From: a virus
Lineage: Duplodnaviria > Heunggongvirae > Uroviricota > Caudoviricetes
DNA: 11,416 nt
Strand: one strand, 5' to 3'
Virus record (IMG/VR): IMGVR_UViG_2541047168_000023
Span: 1-11,416 of that record
Both the position numbers and the translations under genes were made by a program. Each line of letters opens with the position of its first letter. The stretch's first letter is position 1. This document shows positions 1-7,784 of the stretch, piece by piece. Below the pieces are notes generated by a model that saw nothing but the letters and a program-made list of their open reading frames with translations, ran no database searches and had not been told where the DNA came from.

Positions 1-174
1 CAACTCCGGGAGCCGTGATTATGGCATTCAGGCTCTGCTAAAAATGCCAGATAACATTCCGGCCTCCCCTGATTCAGGTTATAAATGACACAATATCTTG
101 ACAACACCCGTCACTGTCTGTCAGAAAATATACCGCCAGGCATAAGTATCATGTGAAATCCAACTATCCTTCTG

Positions 175-217
175 AGCCAGCACCTCTCCACCGAAAGTCA
201 GTGCTGGCTGTTTTTTT
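175..217 (+). terminator. Candidate intrinsic terminator: 9-bp stem, long loop, T-run
   Basis: AGCCAGCAC (175-183) pairs with GTGCTGGCT (201-209), followed by G + TTTTTTT (211-217). The 17-nt loop is longer than typical, which lowers confidence. No ORF of 60 aa or more lies upstream in the window. Confidence 0.3.
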
Positions 218-423
218 CCTTAATAAAGCATCTGTAACTGGTTGTTGTTCTGCGGGTTCTGTTCTTCGTTGACATGAGGTTGCCCCGTATTCAGTGTCGC
301 TGATTTGTATTGTCTGAAGTTGTTTTTACGTTAAGTTGATGCAGATCAATTAATACGATACCTGCGTCATAATTAATTATTTGACGTGGTTTGATGGCGT
401 AGATGCACGTTGTGACATGTAGA

Positions 424-438
424 TGATAATTATTATCA
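424..438. promoter_or_regulatory. Perfect 7-1-7 inverted repeat TGATAAT-T-ATTATCA (Fur-box-like)
   Basis: Read directly: TGATAAT (424-430), T (431), ATTATCA (432-438), inside an AT-rich stretch about 40 bp upstream of cosN. It matches the 7-1-7 description of Fur boxes (TGATAATnATTATCA); function is unknown. Confidence 0.3.
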
Positions 439-474
439 TTTTGCGGGTCCTTTCCGGCGATCCGACAGGTTACG

Positions 475-486
475 GGGCGGCGACCT
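475..486. other. cosN: cosN 12-nt cohesive-end sequence (lambda-type cos site)
   Basis: GGGCGGCGACCT at 475-486, preceded by CGACAGGTTACG and followed by CGCGGGTTTTCGCTATTTATGAAAATTTTCCGG. From recollection this matches the phage lambda cos junction (right end ...CAGGTTACG, left end GGGCGGCGACCTCGCGGG...). The small terminase gene starts about 185 bp downstream, as in lambda. Confidence 0.85.
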
Positions 487-520
487 CGCGGGTTTTCGCT
501 ATTTATGAAAATTTTCCGGG

Positions 521-632
521 ATCCATGTCCGGTTTCTCTTCAAGTTAACTATATGAAAAATATAAAAACAGGTCTTCTGTGAACCGGACATGAACAAAAA
601 ACAGACATGTAAACCGGACATGACCGGTTTTG
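521..632 (+). promoter_or_regulatory. cosB: Putative cosB: three copies of ATGTCCGGTT flanking an AT-rich IHF-like segment
   Basis: ATGTCCGGTT at 525-534 (+ orientation) and its reverse complement AACCGGACAT at 582-591 and 612-621. An AT-rich stretch (about 545-570, TATATGAAAAATATAAAAACAGG) lies between the first and second copies. This mirrors lambda cosB (R3, I1, R2, R1, with R3 inverted), but the repeat sequence differs from what I recall of the lambda R sites. Confidence 0.5.
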
Positions 633-669
633 TTGTGATTGTGAGGTGAGAGTTTTTGCGAGGTGAGGA

Positions 670-1179
670 GTGGCTACGCAGACTGAAGTTGCCAGGCATT
701 TAAGTCTGACCGATCGCCAGCTTCGCAGATTGCAGAAATTGCCGGGTGCCCCGATATCGAATAAGCGAGGGCAACTGGATCTGGATGCCTGGCGCGATTT
801 TTACATATCGTATCTGAGGAGAAGTAAAAACGATGTGCCTGATGGCGATAGCGAAGACGACTATGAGGAGAAATTGCTTATTGCCAGATGGGAACTGACA
901 GCAGAACAGGCTGTTACACAGCAGTTAAAAAATGAGGTGTCAAAAGGAAAACTGATTGACACCGGGTTCTGTATTTTTGCCCTCAGTAAGCTGGCAATGG
1001 CGTTATCCAGTACGCTTGATTCCATCCCTTTATCCATGCAGCGACAGTTTCCTGATTTAACACCGCGCCATCTTGACCATCTGAAAACCCTTATTGCTAA
1101 GGGGGCAAATCAGTGTGCGCGGGCAGGGGATAAATTACCGGATTTACTTGATGAATATATCAGAGCAACAACTGAATAA
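670..1179 (+). CDS. Nu1: Terminase small subunit (Nu1 family)
   Basis: 169-aa ORF from GTG 670, immediately after cos and overlapping the start of A. The C-terminal half resembles lambda Nu1 as I recall it (FCxFxLS..., PLSxQRxFP, LxEYI). The N-terminal region (TQTEVARHLSLTDRQLRRLQ) is HTH-like but unlike lambda Nu1. Confidence 0.85.
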   Translation: MATQTEVARHLSLTDRQLRRLQKLPGAPISNKRGQLDLDAWRDFYISYLRRSKNDVPDGDSEDDYEEKLLIARWELTAEQAVTQQLKNEVSKGKLIDTGFCIFALSKLAMALSSTLDSIPLSMQRQFPDLTPRHLDHLKTLIAKGANQCARAGDKLPDLLDEYIRATTE

Positions 1180-3080
1180 TATGATGAGCGCTGTCACAAC
1201 TGCATTACAGCCCCTGATAAGGGCATTGCCGGTGACGCCAGTTGAATGGGCTGATCAAAATTATTATCTGCCTAAAGAATCTTCATATGGTGAGGGCGAA
1301 TGGAAAACGCTGCCATTCCAGATCGCCATCATGAACAGTATGGGGAATGATCAGATCCGCACTGTTAATCTGATTAAATCTGCCCGTGTTGGCTATACAA
1401 AGATGTTGCTGGGGGGGGGGCGGGTATTTTATTGAGCATAAATCCCGAAACAGTCTGCTTTTTCAGCCCACGGATTCTGCCGCTGAAGATTTTATGAAGT
1501 CTCACGTGGAGGCGACGATTCGGAACGTGCCATGCCTGAAAGACCTTTCCCCATGGCTGGGTCGTAAACATCGTGACAATACTCTCACGCTGAAACGCTT
1601 TTCATCGGGCGTCGGTTTCTGGTGCCTGGGCGGCGCTGCCGCCAAAAACTACCGTGAAAAATCCGTTGACGTGGTCTGCTATGACGAACTTTCCTCGTTC
1701 GAGCCGGATGTCGAAAAAGAGGGCTCGCCAACCCTGCTGGGGGATAAGCGTATTGAGGGGTCGGTGTGGCCAAAATCCATTCGCGGCTCGACGCCTAAAA
1801 TCAAAGGCACCTGCCAGATCGAAAAAGCCGCTAACGAGTCGGCGCATTTTATGCGTTTTTATGTGCCCTGCCCGCACTGTGGGGAGGCGCAGTATCTGAA
1901 ATTTGGCGATGAGTCCACGCCTTTTGGGCTTAAATGGGAGAAGGACAGCCCTGAAAGTGTTTTCTACCTCTGTGAACATCATGGCTGCGTGATCCATCAG
2001 TCTGAACTGGACCAGAGCAACGGGCGGTGGATCTGTGAAAACACGGGCATGTGGACCCGTGACGGTCTGACGTTTTTCAGCGCCCGGGGTGATGAAATTC
2101 CGCCGCCGCGCTCCATCATGTTCCATATCTGGACGGCGTACAGTCCGTTCACCACCTGGGTACAGATTGTCTATGACTGGCTGGATGCACTGAAAGATCC
2201 CAACGGCCTGAAAACCTTTGTGAACACCACGCTGGGCGAGACCTGGGAAGAGGCCGTGGGCGAAAAACTCGATCACCAGGTACTGATGGATAAGGTGGTG
2301 CGTTACACGGCGGCGGTGCCTGCCCGGGTGGTTTATCTGACGGCGGGCATTGACTCGCAGCGAAACCGTTTTGAGATGTATGTCTGGGGATGGGCTCCGG
2401 GAGAGGAAGCCTTTCTGGTGGATAAAATCATCATTATGGGGCGTCCTGATGAGGAAGAGACGCTGTTACGTGTGGATGCGGCGATCAACAAAAAATACCG
2501 CCATGCGGATGGCACCGAAATGACTATTTCCCGTGTCTGCTGGGACACCGGGGGGATCGATGGTGAAATTGTTTATCAGAGATCAAAAAAACACGGTGTT
2601 TTCCGGGTGCTGCCGGTAAAAGGCGCATCTGTCTATGGCAAGCCGGTGATCACCATGCCAAAAACCCGCAATCAGCGGGGCGTGTATCTGTGTGAAGTGG
2701 GAACGGACACCGCAAAAGAAATTCTCTATGCCCGTATGAAAGCCGATCCCTCGCCTGCGGATGAAGCCACGTCGTATGCCATCCGTTTTCCTGATGATCC
2801 GGAGATTTTTTCGCAGACAGAGGCGCAGCAACTGGTGGCGGAAGAGCTGGTGGAGAAGTGGGAAAAAGGAAAGATGCGTCTGCTGTGGGATAACAAAAAG
2901 CGGCGTAACGAAGCGCTGGACTGCCTGGTGTATGCCTACGCGGCATTACGTGTGTCCGTGCAACGCTGGCAGCTTGATCTGGCTGTACTGGCAAAATCCC
3001 GGGAAGAAGAGACGACCCGGCCAACCCTGAAAGAACTGGCAGCGAAGCTGTCCGGAGGAGTGAATGGTTACAGTCGCTGA
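1151..3080 (+). pseudogene. A: Terminase large subunit (gpA homolog), frame interrupted at a G10 tract (real frameshift or homopolymer error)
   Basis: Two ORFs in different frames (1094-1435 and 1386-3080) together give a full-length gpA homolog. The likely start is ATG 1151 (MNISEQQL..., compare lambda MNISNSQV...). The frames switch at GGGGGGGGGG (1411-1420); removing one G gives ...GYTKMLLGGGGYFIEHK..., collinear with lambda ...GYSKMLLGVYAYFIEHK... Downstream motifs are conserved (KNYREKSVDV, FVNTTLGETWE, KRRNEALDC). Confidence 0.8.
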
Positions 3081-3270
3081 ACTGCAGGCGCTGCGTCAGG
3101 CGCGCCTTGATTTATTAACCGGTAAACGGGTGGTGTCTGTCCAGAAAGATGGTCGCAGAATTGAATATACGGCGGCTTCTCTGGATGAGCTTAACCGGGC
3201 GATCAATGATGCGGAGTCGGTACTGGGGACAACCCGGCGTCGCCGTCGTCCGCTGGGAGTGAGGTTATGA
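3064..3270 (+). CDS. W: Head-tail joining (head completion) protein gpW
   Basis: 68 aa, with LxxGKRVxxVQKDGRRxE[FY]TA and a C-terminal RRRR motif as in lambda gpW. The start overlaps the end of A and the stop overlaps the B start (ATGA at 3267-3270). Confidence 0.85.
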   Translation: MVTVAELQALRQARLDLLTGKRVVSVQKDGRRIEYTAASLDELNRAINDAESVLGTTRRRRRPLGVRL

Positions 3271-4859
3271 AACGAACGCCTGTCCTGATTGATGTGAACG
3301 GCGTTCCGCTTCGTGAGAGTCTCAGCTACAACGGGGGCGGTGCAGGATTTGGCGGGCAAATGGCGGAGTGGTTGCCACCGGCGCAGAGTGCCGATGCGGC
3401 CCTGCTGCCCGCGTTGCGTCTGGGGAATGCCCGGGCAGATGATCTGGTGCGCAATAACGGAATAGCGGCCAATGCGGTGGCACTGCATAAGGATCACATT
3501 GTCGGGCATATGTTTCTTATCAGCTACCGTCCGAACTGGCGCTGGCTGGGGATGCGGGAGACCGCAGCAAAAAGCTTTGTCGATGAGGTGGAGGCGGCCT
3601 GGTCGGAATACGCCGAAGGGATGTCTGGCGAGATCGACGTGGAAGGAAAACGCACGTTCACGGAATTTATCCGTGAAGGTGTGGGCGTTCATGCGTTTAA
3701 CGGCGAAATCTTTGTGCAGCCGGTCTGGGATACGGAAACCACGCAGTTATTCCGTACGCGTTTTAAAGCCGTGAGTCCGAAACGGGTGGACACGCCAGGA
3801 CACGGTATGGGGAACCGTTTTCTGCGGGCCGGGGTGGAGGTCGATCGATATGGCCGTGCCGTTGCGTACCATATCTGTGAGGATGATTTTCCTCGCTCCG
3901 GGAGTGGACGATGGGAACGGATCCCGCGTGAACTTCCCACCGGGCGTCCGGCCATGCTGCATATTTTCGAGCCGGTGGAGGACGGGCAGACCCGTGGGGC
4001 CAACCAGTTTTACAGCGTCATGGAACGGCTGAAGATGCTCGATTCCCTGCAGGCAACACAGCTTCAGTCGGCCATTGTGAAAGCCATGTATGCAGCGACG
4101 ATTGAAAGTGACCTTGATACCGAAAAGGCCTTTGAATATATCGCCGGTGCGCCGCAGGGGCAGAAGGATAATCCGCTTATTAATATTCTGGAGAAGTTCT
4201 CCAGCTGGTATGACACGAATAACGTGACGCTGGGTGGTGTCAAAATTCCGCACCTTTTCCCCGGGGATGATCTGAAACTACAGACTGCGCAGGATTCAGA
4301 CAATGGATTTTCGGCGCTTGAACAGGCGCTGCTGCGGTATATCGCCGCCGGTCTTGGCGTTTCCTACGAACAGTTGTCCCGTGATTACTCGAAGGTCAGT
4401 TATTCAAGTGCCAGGGCCTCTGCCAATGAGTCGTGGCGCTATTTTATGGGGCGGCGAAAATTTATTGCGGCCCGGCTGGCCACGCAGATGTTTTCCTACT
4501 GGCTGGAAGAGGCACTTCTTCGGGGGATTATCCGTCCGCCACGGGCGCGTTTTGATTTTTATCAGGCGCGATCAGCCTGGTCACGGGCAGAGTGGATTGG
4601 TGCCGGAAGAATGGCCATTGACGGGCTCAAGGAGGTTCAGGAATCGGTGATGCGCATTGAGGCCGGACTGAGCACGTATGAGAAAGAGCCGGCGCTGATG
4701 GGCGAGGATTATCAGGACATTTTCCGCCAGCAGGTCAGGGAATCTGCAGAGCGGCAAAAAGCCGGACTCTCACGTCCGGTGTGGATAGCGCAGGCGTATC
4801 AGCAGCAGATAGCGGAGAGTCGCAGGCCGGAAGAGGAGACAACACCCCGTGAGACGTAA
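3267..4859 (+). CDS. B: Portal protein gpB
   Basis: 530 aa with long stretches matching my recollection of lambda gpB (ARADDLVRNNG, FEPVEDGQTRGAN, LQSAIVKAMYAATIES, LRYIAAGLGVSYEQLSR, GRMAIDGLKEVQE). Position after W is as in lambda. Confidence 0.9.
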   Translation: MKRTPVLIDVNGVPLRESLSYNGGGAGFGGQMAEWLPPAQSADAALLPALRLGNARADDLVRNNGIAANAVALHKDHIVGHMFLISYRPNWRWLGMRETAAKSFVDEVEAAWSEYAEGMSGEIDVEGKRTFTEFIREGVGVHAFNGEIFVQPVWDTETTQLFRTRFKAVSPKRVDTPGHGMGNRFLRAGVEVDRYGRAVAYHICEDDFPRSGSGRWERIPRELPTGRPAMLHIFEPVEDGQTRGANQFYSVMERLKMLDSLQATQLQSAIVKAMYAATIESDLDTEKAFEYIAGAPQGQKDNPLINILEKFSSWYDTNNVTLGGVKIPHLFPGDDLKLQTAQDSDNGFSALEQALLRYIAAGLGVSYEQLSRDYSKVSYSSARASANESWRYFMGRRKFIAARLATQMFSYWLEEALLRGIIRPPRARFDFYQARSAWSRAEWIGAGRMAIDGLKEVQESVMRIEAGLSTYEKEPALMGEDYQDIFRQQVRESAERQKAGLSRPVWIAQAYQQQIAESRRPEEETTPRET

Positions 4860-6354
4860 TCTTTCACACATTATTGCCGCAGCATTCAATGAACCGCTGC
4901 TTCTGGAGCCCGCCTATGCGCGGGTTTTCTTTTGCGCGCTCGGGCGCGAGATGGGGGCAGCAAGTCTTTCGGTACCACAGCAGCAGGTACAGCTTGATGC
5001 TCCCGGAATGCTGGCTGAAACGGACGAGTACATGGCCGGAGGTAAACGACCGGCCCGTGTTTACCGGGTGGTGAACGGTATTGCTGTACTGCCGGTGACC
5101 GGCACGCTGGTGCACCGGCTGGGGGGTATGCGGCCATTTTCCGGAATGACAGGCTATGACGGCATTGTCGCCTGTCTTCAGCAGGCAATGGCGGATAGCC
5201 AGGTGCGGGGCGTACTGCTGGACATTGACAGTCCGGGCGGGCAGGCCGCCGGCGCGTTTGACTGCGCTGACATGATTTACCGCCTCCGTCAGCAGAAGCC
5301 GGTCTGGGCACTGTGCAATGACACGGCCTGTTCTGCAGCCATGCTGCTGGCGTCGGCCTGCTCCCGACGGCTGGTTACCCAGACATCCCGTATCGGCTCC
5401 ATTGGCGTGATGATGAGCCATGTCAGCTATGCCGGTCATCTGGCGCAGGCCGGTGTGGATATCACGCTGATTTACTCAGGGGCGCACAAGGTGGATGGCA
5501 ATCAGTTTGAAGCCTTACCGGCAGAGGTTCGCCAGAACATGCAGCAGCGCATTGATGCGGCGCGCCGGATGTTTGCCGAAAAAGTGGCCATGTTTACCGG
5601 TCTGTCTGTTGATGCCGTCACGGGAACAGAGGCCGCCGTTTTTGAAGGTCAGTCCGGCATTGATGCCGGGCTGGCGGATGAATTAGTCAATGCGTCGGAT
5701 GCCATCAGTGTGATGGCCACGGCGCTGAACAGTAATGTCAGAGGAGGCACTATGCCGCAATTAACTGCAACGGAAGCCGCCGCGCAGGAGAACCAGCGAG
5801 TGATGGGGATCCTGACATGCCAGGAAGCGAAAGGACGTGAACAGCTTGCCACGATGCTGGCAGGACAACAGGGCATGAGCGTTGAACAGGCCCGGGCGAT
5901 TCTGGCCGCGGCGGCACCGCAGCAGCCGGTGGCATCCACGCAGAGTGAAGCCGATCGCATTATGGCGTGTGAAGAAGCGAACGGTCGTGAACAACTGGCG
6001 GCAACGCTGGCGGCGATGCCGGAGATGACGGTGGAAAAAGCCCGCCCGATCCTGGCTGCTTCACCGCAGGCGGATGCCGGACCCTCACTCCGTGATCAGA
6101 TCATGGCACTGGATGAGGCAAAAGGGGCTGAGGCGCAGGCTGAACAGCTGGCTGCCTGCCCGGGAATGACTGTGGAGAGCGCCCGGGCTGTGCTGGCTGC
6201 GGGATCAGGTAAGGCAGAACCGGTCTCTGCATCCACAACCGCCCTGTTTGAACGCATCATGGCGAACCATTCACCGGCTGCGGTACAGGGTGGCGTGCCA
6301 CAGACGTCAGCAGACGGTGATGCGGACGTGAAAATGCTCATGGCCATGCCATGA
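4849..6354 (+). CDS. C: Prohead protease/scaffold gpC (S49/SppA-like peptidase domain), with an expanded repeat at the C terminus; a nested Nu3-like scaffold product is possible
   Basis: 501 aa, GTG start overlapping the end of B. The N-terminal two-thirds match lambda gpC as recalled (AFNEPLLLEPAYARVFFCAL, MTGY, GAFDCAD, KPVWAL, RRLVTQT, GSIGVMM, ITLIYSG.HKVDGN, IDAGLADELVN). The C-terminal third carries tandem repeats (separate repeat feature). Confidence 0.9.
   Translation: MRRNLSHIIAAAFNEPLLLEPAYARVFFCALGREMGAASLSVPQQQVQLDAPGMLAETDEYMAGGKRPARVYRVVNGIAVLPVTGTLVHRLGGMRPFSGMTGYDGIVACLQQAMADSQVRGVLLDIDSPGGQAAGAFDCADMIYRLRQQKPVWALCNDTACSAAMLLASACSRRLVTQTSRIGSIGVMMSHVSYAGHLAQAGVDITLIYSGAHKVDGNQFEALPAEVRQNMQQRIDAARRMFAEKVAMFTGLSVDAVTGTEAAVFEGQSGIDAGLADELVNASDAISVMATALNSNVRGGTMPQLTATEAAAQENQRVMGILTCQEAKGREQLATMLAGQQGMSVEQARAILAAAAPQQPVASTQSEADRIMACEEANGREQLAATLAAMPEMTVEKARPILAASPQADAGPSLRDQIMALDEAKGAEAQAEQLAACPGMTVESARAVLAAGSGKAEPVSASTTALFERIMANHSPAAVQGGVPQTSADGDADVKMLMAMP
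5797..6300 (+). repeat. In-frame tandem repeats (about 141-159 bp, 3 full copies plus 1 partial) in the C-terminal region of C
   Basis: Units begin at 5797 (RVMGILTCQEAKGREQLATMLAGQQGMSVEQARAILAAAAPQ), 5956 (RIMACEEANGREQLAATLAAMPEMTVEKARPILAASPQ) and 6097 (QIMALDEAKGAEAQAEQLAACPGMTVESARAVLAAGSG), with a partial copy at 6253 (RIMANH...). As I recall, lambda gpC has a single such unit (RIMGILNCEEAHGREEQARVLAETPGMTVKTARRILAAAPQ). Confidence 0.65.
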
Positions 6355-6390
6355 AGTCAGTGCTGACCATCAACAGGAGGTTTTTACAAT

Positions 6391-6738
6391 ATGGTAACGA
6401 AAAACATCACTGAACAGCGTGCGGAAGTACGTATTTTTGCCGGTAATGATCCGGCTCATACCGCCACAGGCAGCAGCGGGATTTCCTCGGCAACACCGGC
6501 ACTGACGCCCCTGATGCTGGATGAAGCCAGCGGGAAACTGGTGGTCTGGGACGGACAGAAAGCCGGTAGTGCAGTTGGCATACTGGTACTGCCGCTTGAA
6601 GGCACAGAGACGGTACTGACCTATTACAAGTCGGGGACCTTTGCGACGGAGGCAATCCGCTGGCCTGAAAGTGTGGATGAACACAAAAAGGCAAATGCCT
6701 TTGCCGGCAGTGCCCTGAGTCACGCGGCGCTGCCGTAA
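6391..6738 (+). CDS. D: Head decoration protein gpD
   Basis: 115 aa with RBS AGGAGG (6375-6380). It shares DPAHTAT, TPLMLD, KLVxWDG, AVGIL, YKSGTF and AFAG with lambda gpD as recalled. Confidence 0.9.
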   Translation: MVTKNITEQRAEVRIFAGNDPAHTATGSSGISSATPALTPLMLDEASGKLVVWDGQKAGSAVGILVLPLEGTETVLTYYKSGTFATEAIRWPESVDEHKKANAFAGSALSHAALP

Positions 6739-6795
6739 CACGTTATCAGGCCACCGCGGTGGCCTGACTGATTTCTGAATGAAAGGAACTGATTT

Positions 6796-7062
6796 ATGGG
6801 ATTGTTTACGACCCGCCAGTTACTCGGTTATACCGAACAAAAAGTGAAATTTCGTGCGCTGTTTCTGGAGCTGTTTTTCCGCCGTACGGTGAATTTCCAT
6901 ACCGAAGAGGTGATGCTGGACAAAATTACCGGAAAAACGCCGGTGGCGGCCTATGTCTCCCCGGTTGTTGAAGGAAAAGTGCTGCGTCATCGCGGTGGTG
7001 AAACCCGCGTGTTACGTCCGGGCTACGTCAAGCCGAAACACGAATTCCCCTGGAGCCGGTAA
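6796..7062 (+). pseudogene. E: Truncated major capsid protein gene (E'), N-terminal ~84 codons only
   Basis: MGLFTTRQLLGYTEQKVKFRALFLELFF...PGYVKPKHE tracks lambda gpE (MSMYTTAQLL...KFKFDPLFLRLFF...PGYVKPKHE) up to 7044. It then reads FPWSR and stops at 7060-7062. Lambda gpE is about 341 aa. Confidence 0.8.
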
Positions 7063-7784
7063 AAGGAGCCGGTACCACCCTGTGGGTTTATAACGGTCAG
7101 GGTGACGCCTATGCAAACCCGTTGTCAGACGATGACTGGCAGCGACTGGCTAAGGTGAAGGATCTGACGCCGGGCGAGATGACGGCAGAATCCTACGATG
7201 ATAACTACCTGGATGATGAAGACGCGGACTGGACCGCGACCGGGCAGGGGCAGAAATCTGCAGGTGATACCAGTTTTACGCTGGCCTGGAAACCGGGAGA
7301 GGAAGGCCAGAAAGGGCTTATAGGCTGGTTTGAAAGCGGCGATGTCCGGGCCTATAAAATCCGTTTTCCGAATGGCACGGTGGATGTGTTTCGTGGCTGG
7401 GTCAGCAGTATCGGTAAGGCCGTGACGGCGAAAGAAGTGATCACCCGCACGGTGAAAGTCACTAACGTGGGTAAACCTTCTGTAGCGGAAGAACGCAGCA
7501 AAATTACGCCGGTCAGTGCGATTAAGGTGACGCCGACATCCGGTACGGTGGCAAAAGGGAAAACAACCACCCTGACGGTTTCTTTTGAGCCGGAAAGTGC
7601 AACAGACAAGACGTTCAGAGCGGTTTCCGCCGATCCGTCGAAAGCCACCATTAGTGTGAAAGATATGACAATTACGGTAAACGGCGTGGCGACAGGTAAG
7701 GTGCAGATCCCTGTGGTGAGCGGAAATGGTCAGTTCGCCGCAGTGGCTGAAGTCACCGTTACTGAAGCGGGCGCTGCAGGGTAA
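7056..7784 (+). pseudogene. V: Major tail protein V lacking its first ~8 codons and native start (V')
   Basis: In the frame of ORF 7122-7784, the sequence from about 7056 reads [41 protein letters not shown]...[40 protein letters not shown]..., closely matching lambda gpV from about residue 9. This frame is closed by TGA at 6999-7001 and has no ATG/GTG before TTG 7122. Confidence 0.8.

What the first reader, a model, noticed from the sequence alone, without database searches (positions are those of the whole stretch)
460..520. cosN and flanks match phage lambda although the structural proteins are clearly diverged
About 55 bp around the cohesive end (CGACAGGTTACG GGGCGGCGACCT CGCGGGTTTTCGCTATTTATGAAAATTTTCCGG) matches the lambda cos junction as I recall it. 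Similarity to lambda stops abruptly at about 520, and the encoded proteins differ from lambda at many positions. This is the pattern expected when the large-terminase cutting site is conserved but the small-terminase recognition site is swapped, as described for lambda versus phage 21. It also places the packaging start at 475-486, so the window begins in the right-end region of the prophage map.
Basis: partly seen in the sequence, partly recalled or inferred. Interest (0 to 1): 0.45.

Follow-up and report, generated by a model that had tools for sequence, protein, structure and literature searches.

The report
Lambda-type cos site, swapped cosB
This is the DNA-packaging start site (cos) of a defective lambda-like prophage of E. 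coli O157:H7. Its cutting site is identical to phage lambda's, but its recognition site and small terminase subunit belong to a third, common and untested type, and the site itself was already published in 2009.

Summary
Window 459-519 is a 61-bp exact match to lambda across the cohesive-end site (cosN 475-486). The match is wider than reported: 240-519 is 96.4% identical to lambda's right end plus its first 45 bp, including cosQ (445-451). It stops at 519/520.

Downstream lies a complete lambda-style cosB with different sequences:
- R3, CATGTCCGGTTT, 524-535 (+50)
- an IHF-like site, 546-558
- inverted R2, 582-592
- R1, 611-630

A 169-aa small terminase (TerS, 670-1179) follows. Only its C-terminal half resembles lambda Nu1 (46%) or phage 21 gp1 (40%). 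The head proteins are 95-98.5% identical to phage 21 and 54-66% to lambda. The swapped module (520-1232: cosB, TerS, first ~27 codons of TerL) matches neither lambda/phi80, 21 nor N15.

In nine relatives the R-site sits at the same distance from cosN, and one base in it changes together with one residue of the TerS recognition helix.

The module occurs in 1169 of 5426 complete E. coli genomes and in the PhiR12 phage records. It is the Sp4/Sp14 cos that Asadulghani et al. (2009, Fig. S8) aligned with lambda.

This copy sits in a prophage with a frameshifted TerL and a truncated capsid gene, so it could only be packaged in trans.

Verdict: real, correctly read, essentially known.

The parts
240..444 (+). 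Segment homologous to the right end of the lambda chromosome, upstream of cosQ. Bases 240-275 hold the first codons (minus strand) of a YlcI/YnfO-family gene cut by an inversion breakpoint.
   Evidence: 96.4% identity to lambda, DE3 and HK629 over 240-519. Mismatch list. YlcI/YnfO annotation in relatives.
445..451 (+). cosQ (GGGTCCT), the packaging-termination signal, 30 bp upstream of the first base of the cohesive end.
   Evidence: Exact match at the same distance from cosN in lambda, phage 21, PhiR12_1 and eight TerS-homolog loci. Labelled cosQ for the identical Sp4/Sp14 sequence in Asadulghani 2009 Fig. S8.
475..486 (+). cosN: the 12-nt cohesive-end sequence GGGCGGCGACCT. Nicks are inferred between 474/475 (top strand) and 486/487 (bottom strand).
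   Evidence: Identical to lambda, 21 and phi80. Nick positions are inferred from lambda and were not tested.
487..519 (+). Spacer between cosN and R3 (+13 to +45), identical to lambda. It holds the I2/IHF-labelled element TATGAAAATTTTCCG (504-518).
   Evidence: Exact run 459-519. The TATGAAAATTTTC core is conserved in all relatives, even those with a divergent cosN. Labelled IHF in Fig. S8.
524..535 (+). R3-equivalent TerS binding site, CATGTCCGGTTT, at +50 to +61.
   Evidence: Repeat family. Invariant in seven E. coli variants. Found at +49 to +52 in all relatives. Lambda R3 lies at bp 50-65 (PMC9026076).
546..558 (+). I1-equivalent IHF-like site, TAACTATATGAAA, followed by an A/T tract to about 570.
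   Evidence: Two mismatches to YAANNNNTTGATW, which is not above chance on its own. Relatives L006, L007, L008 and L013 carry a perfect consensus in the same position and orientation, and lambda and 21 carry an equally imperfect one.
582..592 (-). R2-equivalent site: inverted copy AACCGGACATG at +108.
   Evidence: 100% complementary to R3. Present at +107 to +109 in 9 of the 11 loci scanned. CFT073 carries a one-base variant there and L010 has R3 only.
611..630 (.). R1 region: near-palindrome AAACCGGACATGACCGGTTT. It holds a perfect copy in R2 orientation (611-622) and a one-mismatch copy in R3 orientation (619-630).
   Evidence: The R2-oriented copy is the conserved one.
670..1179 (+). Small terminase subunit (TerS, 169 aa, GTG start). 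[quoted passage not shown]
   Evidence: Pfam Phage_Nu1 over residues 49-150 only. 46% and 40% identity to lambda Nu1 and 21 gp1, in the C-terminal half only. phrog_57 covers the whole length. Structure model and fold matches. Matches the 169-aa Sp14 Nu1 shown in Fig. S8, allowing for text-extraction artefacts.
1151..1232 (+). First ~27 codons of TerL, the presumed TerS-binding end, which belong to the swapped module rather than to the 21-like body of the gene.
   Evidence: Phage 21 nucleotide identity starts at 1233. N-terminal alignment. TerL after the G-run is 96% identical to 21 gp2.
1151..3080 (+). Large terminase gene (TerL), disrupted here by a +1 frameshift in a 10-G run at 1411-1420.
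   Evidence: Two ORFs. The GpA_ATPase domain is split between them. Alignment to PhiR12_1, 21, lambda and L014. PGAP marks it 'frameshifted'.

Best explanation
Window 445-669 is a complete lambda-family cos site and is followed by its cognate small-terminase gene.

Inferred mechanism, by analogy with lambda:
- TerS dimers bind R3 and the inverted R2 through their winged helix-turn-helix domains, across an IHF-induced bend at I1.
- This places TerL so that it nicks cosN 12 bp apart (474/475 and 486/487), giving the lambda cohesive end.
- cosQ (445-451) serves packaging termination.

Mosaic structure:
- 240-519 is lambda-like: right end, cosQ, cosN and the I2 spacer.
- 520-1232 is a self-contained specificity cassette: cosB, all of TerS, and the TerL N-terminus that TerS binds. 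It matches neither lambda/phi80, 21 nor N15.
- 1233-7046 is phage 21's head module.
- 7037 onward is an O157 VT1-Sakai-type tail module.

The cutting and termination signals read by TerL are therefore shared across specificity classes, while the recognition signal co-varies with the TerS DNA-binding domain.

This copy belongs to the Sp4/Sp14-type prophage of O157:H7. Its own TerL is frameshifted and its capsid gene is truncated. It can be used only in trans, by terminase from a sibling prophage with the same TerS.

Shown here: the sequence anatomy, the mosaic boundaries, conservation, covariation and distribution. Inferred: binding, bending, nick positions and trans-packaging.
For: - **Identity with lambda.** cosQ, cosN and the spacer are lambda-identical.
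- **Repeats.** Three copies of an 11-mer lie in 520-669. None of 20000 shuffles gave three copies and 69 gave two.
- **Layout.** R3 at +50, IHF-like site at +72, R2 at +108, R1 at about +138 to +156, TerS start at +196. The published layout is R3-I1-R2-R1 with lambda R3 at bp 50-65 (PMC9026076; PMC4669245). The annotated phage 21 sites recompute to +50, +72, +107 and +150.
- **Conservation within E. coli.** Across seven variants, substitutions fall in the spacers. R3 is invariant and R2 and R1 are nearly so.
- **Conservation across genera.** In relatives from Klebsiella, Salmonella, Enterobacter and metagenomes (TerS 43-88% identical), an NNN(G/T)TCCGGTT site sits at +49 to +52. Its inverted copy sits at +107 to +109 in every relative that has a long cosB.
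- **Covariation.** Helix DRQLRRLQK goes with ATGTCCGG (window, PhiR12_1, E. kobei L009, Salmonella L012). Helices with D, N or T at residue 20 go with A(T/C)TTCCGG or similar (L006, L007, L008, L010, L011, L013). L007 is closer overall to the window (77%) than L009 (60%) yet has the other pairing. The variable base corresponds in the motif to lambda/21 bp 56, a published specificity determinant (coordinates checked).
- **TerS.** The Nu1 Pfam match covers only the C-terminal half. The N-terminal domain maps to the same phrog_57 positions as lambda Nu1 and 21 gp1. Its model (pLDDT 82) is a winged HTH with TM 0.62-0.65 to gpNu1 DBD 1j9i and to chain 6hn7_B of the RppC-TerS entry.
- **In phage isolates.** The same cosB and TerS occur in the PhiR12_1 to _5 phage records, whose listed hosts are K-12 and E. 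coli C.
- **Literature.** The identical Sp4/Sp14 cos was aligned with lambda. Sp4 DNA was found packaged despite a defective terminase, and this was attributed to Sp14's terminase (PMC2669165).
Against: - No experiment here shows cleavage at 475-486 or TerS binding to the repeats.
- The I1 match in this window has two mismatches and is not above chance by itself.
- The fold matches have non-significant Foldseek E-values (0.3-1.4), as expected for a 60-residue domain.
- The covariation rests on about ten loci and only two states.
- The conserved R1 copy has R2's orientation. In lambda and 21, R1 has R3's orientation.
- The R core lies 3 bp closer to cosN than the matching motif in lambda and 21, so the docking geometry may differ.
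- This prophage cannot make its own terminase or capsids.
Confidence: 0.87

Rival explanations
1. The site is simply phage 21's cos: 21-type cosB and gene 1 next to 21-type head genes.
For: The head proteins are 95-98.5% identical to phage 21. The R core CATGTCCGG resembles the 21 R2/R1 core CATGTCGG apart from one extra C.
Against: - Phage 21 (M81255, OL657228) shows no nucleotide match to window 520-1232.
- The alignment shows unrelated cosB sequence.
- TerS is only 40% identical to gp1, and only in the C-terminal half.
- At the specificity positions +56, +58 and +59 the window reads C, G, T, against G, C, G in phage 21.
Confidence: 0.02
2. The lambda-identical 61 bp is a cloning or cosmid artefact. 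A BamHI site (GGATCC, 519-524) sits exactly at the junction where lambda similarity ends.
For: GGATCC lies at the breakpoint. Lambda cos fragments are common in vectors.
Against: - The same junction occurs in hundreds of independent complete E. coli genomes and in the PhiR12 phage records.
- CFT073 and pSTEC711_1 read GGAACC there.
- The left side is only 96.4% identical to lambda, not vector-identical.
- The window is 100% identical over 1-1300 to several O157:H7 chromosomes.
Confidence: 0.01
3. The site is a dead relic. The prophage is decaying and the cos is no longer used by anything.
For: TerL is frameshifted, E is truncated, FI to U are missing and the lysis cassette is inverted.
Against: - The cis elements carry no damage. 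They are 100% identical to copies in other O157 genomes and are conserved in relatives with intact TerL.
- Sp4 DNA, which has the same cos, was recovered from particles (PMC2669165).
Confidence: 0.1
4. The repeats at 524-630 are not TerS sites but operators or hairpins for something else, such as a regulator of late transcription or a terminator.
For: The 611-630 palindrome could form a hairpin. No binding data exist.
Against: - The distance from cosN is fixed in all relatives.
- The inverted R3/R2 pair flanks an IHF-like site exactly as in lambda and 21.
- The repeats co-vary with the TerS recognition helix.
Confidence: 0.03

Closest known systems
Bacteriophage lambda cos (cosQ-cosN-cosB) with gpNu1/gpA terminase
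   Same: cosQ, cosN and the +13 to +45 spacer are identical. The sub-site order R3-I1-R2-R1 matches, with R3 at +50 and TerS starting at about +190 to +196. TerS has an N-terminal winged HTH and a C-terminal half 46% identical to Nu1.
   Different: - The R sequences differ: CATGTCCGGTTT against CGTTTCCGTTCTT, with the shared TCCG core 3 bp nearer cosN.
- The recognition helix differs: DRQLRRLQK against IRTIQNWQE.
- The TerS N-terminal 50 residues are not detectably similar by BLAST or Pfam.
- The conserved R1 copy has R2's orientation.
- The head proteins are only 54-66% identical.
Phage 21 cos and terminase (gp1/gp2), the classic alternative packaging specificity
   Same: cosQ and cosN are identical. 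The head module (TerL from residue ~28, gp3, portal, gp5/6, shp, gp7 N-terminus) is 95-98.5% identical. The cosB architecture is the same. The R core is similar: CATGTCGG in phage 21 against CATGTCCGG here.
   Different: cosB, gene 1 and the first ~27 codons of gene 2 are not homologous at the DNA level. TerS is 40% identical in the C-terminal half only. Phage 21 also differs from lambda and from the window at six positions between cosQ and +45.
Sp4/Sp14 prophages of E. coli O157:H7 Sakai (Asadulghani et al. 2009, PLoS Pathog, PMC2669165, Fig. S8)
   Same: This is the same element. The printed cos sequence matches the window and continues into ...TTTTCCGGGATCCATGT. The printed 169-aa Sp14 Nu1 sequence also matches the window, allowing for text-extraction artefacts. 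cosQ, cosN and an IHF site are already labelled against lambda.
   Different: That paper calls it a putative cos. The parts I read (the passages on cos, terminase and packaging, and Fig. S8) do not define the R3, R2 and R1 repeats or compare the site with phage 21. The window's copy has an intact TerS, whereas Sakai Sp4 has an IS in nu1, and it has a frameshifted TerL.
N15/Monarch packaging specificity (Feiss et al. 2015, PMC4669245)
   Same: It is another lambda-family cos whose cosB and TerS DNA-binding domain differ from lambda and 21. Distant relatives of the window's TerS (L010, L011) have a short, R3-only cosB like N15's.
   Different: N15's R3 is GAGGTTGTTGTT, its cosN differs at two positions, and its TerS N-terminus is unrelated by sequence. 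A tblastn search with the window's TerS N-terminal domain did not hit N15.

Membership tests
Lambda-like cos site (12-nt 5' cohesive end; cosQ-cosN-cosB) | cosN: a 12-bp cohesive-end sequence closely matching GGGCGGCGACCT, with flanking CG dinucleotides. | tested here: met
   Window 475-486 matches exactly and 473-474 / 487-488 are CG.
Lambda-like cos site (12-nt 5' cohesive end; cosQ-cosN-cosB) | cosQ heptamer GGGTCCT about 30 bp upstream of cosN. | tested here: met
   Found at 445-451, at the same offset as in lambda, phage 21 and all relatives.
Lambda-like cos site (12-nt 5' cohesive end; cosQ-cosN-cosB) | Complex cosB between cosN and the TerS gene: R3 at about +50, inverted R2, R1. | tested here: met
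   R3 at 524-535 (+50), R2 at 582-592 (inverted), R1 at 611-630. None of 20000 shuffles gave three copies. The orientation of the conserved R1 copy differs from lambda.
Lambda-like cos site (12-nt 5' cohesive end; cosQ-cosN-cosB) | IHF site I1 between R3 and R2. | tested here: inconclusive
   546-558 has two mismatches to the consensus, which is not above chance alone. Four relatives have a perfect consensus at the same position, and lambda and 21 have an equally imperfect one.
Lambda-like cos site (12-nt 5' cohesive end; cosQ-cosN-cosB) | Staggered nicking by terminase that generates the cohesive ends. | not testable with these tools
   This needs virion-end sequencing or an in vitro cos-cleavage assay.
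Lambda packaging specificity (cosB-lambda / gpNu1; also phi80) | R sequences matching CGTTTCCGTTCTT with T, C, C at bp 56, 58, 59, and recognition helix RTIQNWQE. | tested here: not met
   The window reads C, G, T at +56, +58, +59 and its helix is DRQLRRLQK. There is no DNA similarity after 519.
Phage 21 packaging specificity (cosB-21 / gp1) | Phage 21 R sequences (CGTGTCGGTAC / CATGTCGG) at +53, and the gp1 recognition helix PRTIERWQS. | tested here: not met
   There is no nucleotide match to phage 21 before window 1233. The alignment is, and TerS N-terminal residues 1-63 do not align with gp1 by BLASTP. The R core differs by a 1-bp insertion and a 3-bp shift.
Nu1-type small terminase (Pfam PF07471 Phage_Nu1) | Pfam match above the gathering threshold. 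| tested here: met
   67.9 bits against a cut-off of 30, but over residues 49-150 only.
Nu1-type small terminase (Pfam PF07471 Phage_Nu1) | [quoted passage not shown] | tested here: inconclusive
   The model has pLDDT 82, helices at 4-10, 15-22 and 38-54, and a beta wing. TM is 0.62-0.65 to 1j9i (gpNu1 DBD) and 6hn7_B, and 0.55-0.64 to RacA and RdfS, but Foldseek E-values are 0.3-1.4. It maps to the same phrog_57 positions as lambda Nu1.
N15-type simple cosB | A single R3 with the TerS gene starting at about +89, and no I1, R2 or R1 upstream. | tested here: not met
   The window has R2 and R1, and TerS starts at +196.

The most novel reading that the evidence does not exclude
The cassette 520-1232 (R sites (C/G)ATGTCCGGTT plus a TerS with helix DRQLRRLQK) may define an experimentally uncharacterised packaging specificity of the lambda family. 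It would not be cross-packaged by lambda/phi80, 21 or N15 terminases, although it is carried by about a fifth of complete E. coli genomes. A sister sub-specificity (A(T/C)TTCCGGTT with D or N at TerS residue 20) would differ by a single Arg-guanine-type contact at the base equivalent to lambda/21 bp 56. Shared cosQ and cosN with private cosB would then decide which O157 prophages can mobilise each other's DNA, including defective ones such as this.
Probability: 0.55. Interest if true: 0.35.

Novelty: already known. Interest (0 to 1): 0.18.

Why it matters
The biology is textbook. Lambda-family phages share the TerL cutting and termination signals (cosN, cosQ) and exchange the TerS recognition cassette, which sets who can package whose DNA.

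For O157:H7 this has a practical side. Several resident prophages, some carrying virulence genes and many of them defective, share an identical cos and TerS. One intact terminase can therefore mobilise the others, as Asadulghani et al. (2009) argued for Sp4 and Sp14.

This analysis adds an explicit map of the R3-I1-R2-R1 sites for this widespread class. It also identifies a recognition-helix/base-pair covariation that gives a directly testable specificity determinant.

Tried and rejected
- **Phage 21 cosB.** Checked whether the swapped part is phage 21's. It is not.
- **phi80 and N15.** phi80 has lambda-type R sites and recognition helix. N15 is unrelated.
- **Cloning artefact.** The BamHI site at 519-524 suggested one. 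Natural distribution rules it out.
- **Sequence search of PDB with TerS.** Nothing meaningful.
- **Pfam on the TerS N-terminal 70 residues.** Only a sub-threshold Sigma70_r3 hit.
- **Fold search with the full-length TerS model** (pTM 0.34). Only weak MerR-type hits. It was redone with the N-terminal domain alone.
- **The search for related loci on genome contigs.** Replaced by eight encoding-contig look-ups.
- **IHF consensus scan of the whole window.** 53 matches against 66 expected, so the I1 call cannot rest on the consensus alone.
- **Literature on PICI/Rpp hijacking** (PMC6739421, PMC9026076). Read for any test of this TerS type. None was found. CFT073 carries the identical TerS protein accession in a prophage. 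I could not link it to the 'TerS-21 of CFT073 prophage 4' that Murialdo and Feiss mention.
- **Gifsy-1 and Monarch cosB.** Not compared.

Full report
**Observation.** The 12-nt lambda cohesive-end sequence GGGCGGCGACCT is at window 475-486, and cosQ (GGGTCCT) is at 445-451. An ungapped comparison with lambda, read from the phage DE3 record and anchored on cosN, gives an exact run over 459-519 (61 bp). The first mismatch on the right is at 520. The following 205 bp are 74% mismatched, which is the random level. On the left the similarity goes much further than the finding states. Megablast aligns 240-519 to lambda, DE3, HK629 and HK630 at 96.4%, and to a set of environmental and ECOR-derived lambdoid phages at up to 99.6%.

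**Downstream of 520.** The region between cosN and the first gene is a lambda-style cosB with different sequences.
- A 12-mer, CATGTCCGGTTT, lies at 524-535, which is +50 to +61 counting from the first cohesive-end base.
- Its perfect inverted copy lies at 582-592.
- Another copy lies at 611-622, overlapped by a one-mismatch copy in the opposite orientation at 619-630.
- None of 20000 shuffles of 520-669 gave three copies of an 11-mer.
- Between the first two copies is TAACTATATGAAA (546-558) followed by an A/T tract. It has two mismatches to the IHF consensus, which is not significant on its own. It lies where lambda and phage 21 have I1.

The published layout is R3-I1-R2-R1, with lambda R3 at bp 50-65 and R2 inverted (PMC9026076; PMC4669245). 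The annotated phage 21 sites recompute to +50, +72, +107 and +150. The window's sites are at +50, +72, +108 and +138 to +156, and TerS starts at +196.

**The small terminase.** ORF 670-1179 (GTG start, 169 aa) matches Pfam Phage_Nu1 only over residues 49-150.
- BLASTP finds 46% identity to lambda Nu1 and 40% to 21 gp1, confined to the C-terminal half.
- The N-terminal ~50 residues have no BLAST, Pfam or PDB-sequence match.
- They do map to the same positions of phrog_57 as the lambda and 21 N-termini.
- An AlphaFold model of residues 1-60 (pLDDT 82) has helices at 4-10 and 15-22, a beta wing, and a helix at 38-54.
- Its best structural neighbours are MerR-type winged HTH domains. They include the gpNu1 DNA-binding domain 1j9i and chain 6hn7_B of the RppC-TerS entry (TM 0.62-0.65). 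The E-values are not significant for so small a domain.

**Mosaic boundaries.**
- The head proteins are 95-98.5% identical to phage 21 and 54-66% to lambda.
- Phage 21 nucleotide similarity begins only at 1233, about 27 codons into TerL. The first 27 residues of TerL are a third variant.
- 21-like identity ends at 7046. From 7037 the tail genes match VT1-Sakai-type O157 prophages at about 98%.
- The exchanged unit is therefore 520-1232: cosB, all of TerS, and the TerL N-terminus. In lambda and 21, the TerS C-terminus binds TerL (literature quoted). That the TerL N-terminus is the partner is from my own knowledge of lambda-21 hybrids.
- phi80 carries lambda-type R sites and recognition helix. 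N15 is unrelated.
- A tblastn search with the TerS N-terminal domain against 50,697 phage records hits only the five PhiR12 phages at 100%, plus distant Aeromonas, Pseudomonas and one E. coli phage at 47-57%.

**Comparative support for the R sites.**
- In seven E. coli variants of this cos, substitutions fall in the spacers. R3 is invariant and R2 and R1 are nearly so. This holds even in pSTEC711_1, whose cosN and left flank differ.
- For eight more distant TerS homologs (43-81% identity; Klebsiella, Salmonella, E. kobei, metagenomes) I fetched the upstream DNA.
- Seven of the eight have cosQ 30 bp before a cosN-like 12-mer. The eighth (L011) is a contig that begins inside cos.
- All eight have an NNN(G/T)TCCGGTT site where R3 is expected, at +49 to +52 in the seven that can be measured. 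The six with a long cosB have the inverted copy at +107 to +109. Four have a perfect IHF consensus in between.
- The fourth base of the site tracks TerS residue 20. Helix DRQLRRLQK goes with ATGTCCGG. Helices with D, N or T at residue 20 go with (T/C)TTCCGG.
- This pairing is not simply phylogeny. L007 (77% overall identity) has the T-type pairing, while L009 (60%) and L012 (71%) share the window's.
- The variable base is, within the motif, the equivalent of lambda/21 bp 56 (T in lambda, G in 21), a published specificity determinant (coordinates verified).
- Two differences from lambda and 21 stand out. The core lies 3 bp nearer cosN, and the conserved R1 copy has R2's orientation.

**Source and prior knowledge.**
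- The window is 100% identical over 1-1300 to several E. coli O157:H7 chromosomes.
- The cosB/TerS segment (505-800) occurs in 1169 of 5426 complete E. coli genomes, at one to four copies each. CFT073 encodes the identical TerS protein.
- Asadulghani et al. (2009) aligned exactly this sequence, the cos and Nu1 of Sakai prophages Sp4 and Sp14, with lambda, and labelled cosQ, cosN and an IHF site (Fig. S8).
- They proposed that terminase-defective Sp4 is packaged by Sp14's terminase because the two cos sites are identical.
- The finding is therefore already in the literature. The explicit R-site map and the covariation appear to be new, but they are incremental.

**State of this copy.**
- TerL is split by a +1 frameshift in a 10-G run at 1411-1420. 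A sister O157 copy has 9 G there, and PhiR12_1 reads GGGAGTCGCC.
- The major capsid gene stops after 88 codons and abuts V, with FI to U missing.
- The lysis cassette upstream is inverted, with a breakpoint at 239/240 and IS1203 at the far end.
- This cos can therefore act only in trans.

**Verdict.** This is a real, intact-looking lambda-family cos site. The cassette is a third type, neither lambda nor 21. It is widespread, experimentally uncharacterised and already described descriptively. Interest is low.

Noticed in passing
window 1411-1420 (TerL gene 1151-3080): A run of 10 G causes a +1 frameshift in the large terminase gene. A sister O157 copy (L014) has 9 G and stays in frame at this point, and PhiR12_1 reads GGGAGTCGCC. 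This could be a real slippage-prone tract or a homopolymer sequencing error. PGAP marks the gene 'frameshifted'.
   Followed up: partly
window 6796-7062 and 7037-7784: The major capsid gene E is truncated after 88 codons and directly abuts the tail tube gene V. FI, FII, Z and U are absent. Phage 21-like identity ends at 7046 and VT1-Sakai-like tail identity starts at 7037, so this is a deletion or recombination joint.
   Followed up: partly
window 1-239 (L004 8700-12239): The first 239 bp are not lambda right-end sequence. They are the region upstream of the holin gene. In the matching strain the whole lysis cassette (holin, lysozyme, Rz, PerC) is inverted. One breakpoint lies inside a YlcI/YnfO gene at window 239/240, and IS1203 sits at the other junction. 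Strain PV15-279 has the normal orientation.
   Followed up: partly
window 519-524: A BamHI site (GGATCC) sits exactly where lambda identity ends. It is natural: the same sequence occurs in PhiR12_1, N47 and UPEC129, and CFT073 and pSTEC711_1 read GGAACC.
   Followed up: yes
window 639-650 and 656-667: A direct repeat, TTGTGAGGTGAG / TTGCGAGGTGAG, lies just upstream of the TerS GTG start. Each copy contains a Shine-Dalgarno-like GAGGTGA. Its function is unknown.
   Followed up: no
window 611-630: R1 is a near-palindrome, AAACCGGACATGACCGGTTT. Across relatives the conserved half has R2's orientation, unlike R1 of lambda and 21.
   Followed up: partly
L010 304-381 and L011 1-70: Two distant relatives of this TerS have a short cosB: a tandem TTCCGGTTCCGGTT at about +50 and no inverted copy between cosN and the TerS gene, whose start is at about +78 in L010. 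This resembles N15's simple cosB.
   Followed up: partly
window 499-699, minus strand: A 66-aa ORF overlaps cosB. A shorter overlapping ORF is annotated 'hypothetical protein' in PhiR12_1. It is probably spurious, given that it lies over the packaging signals.
   Followed up: no
L015 (E. coli CFT073 1356408-1357503): The uropathogenic strain CFT073 carries a prophage with the identical TerS protein accession (WP_000235436.1) and a cosB with one change in R2. This strain also hosts the PICI EcCICFT073, whose Rpp redirects helper TerS. Whether Rpp acts on this TerS type was not established.
   Followed up: partly
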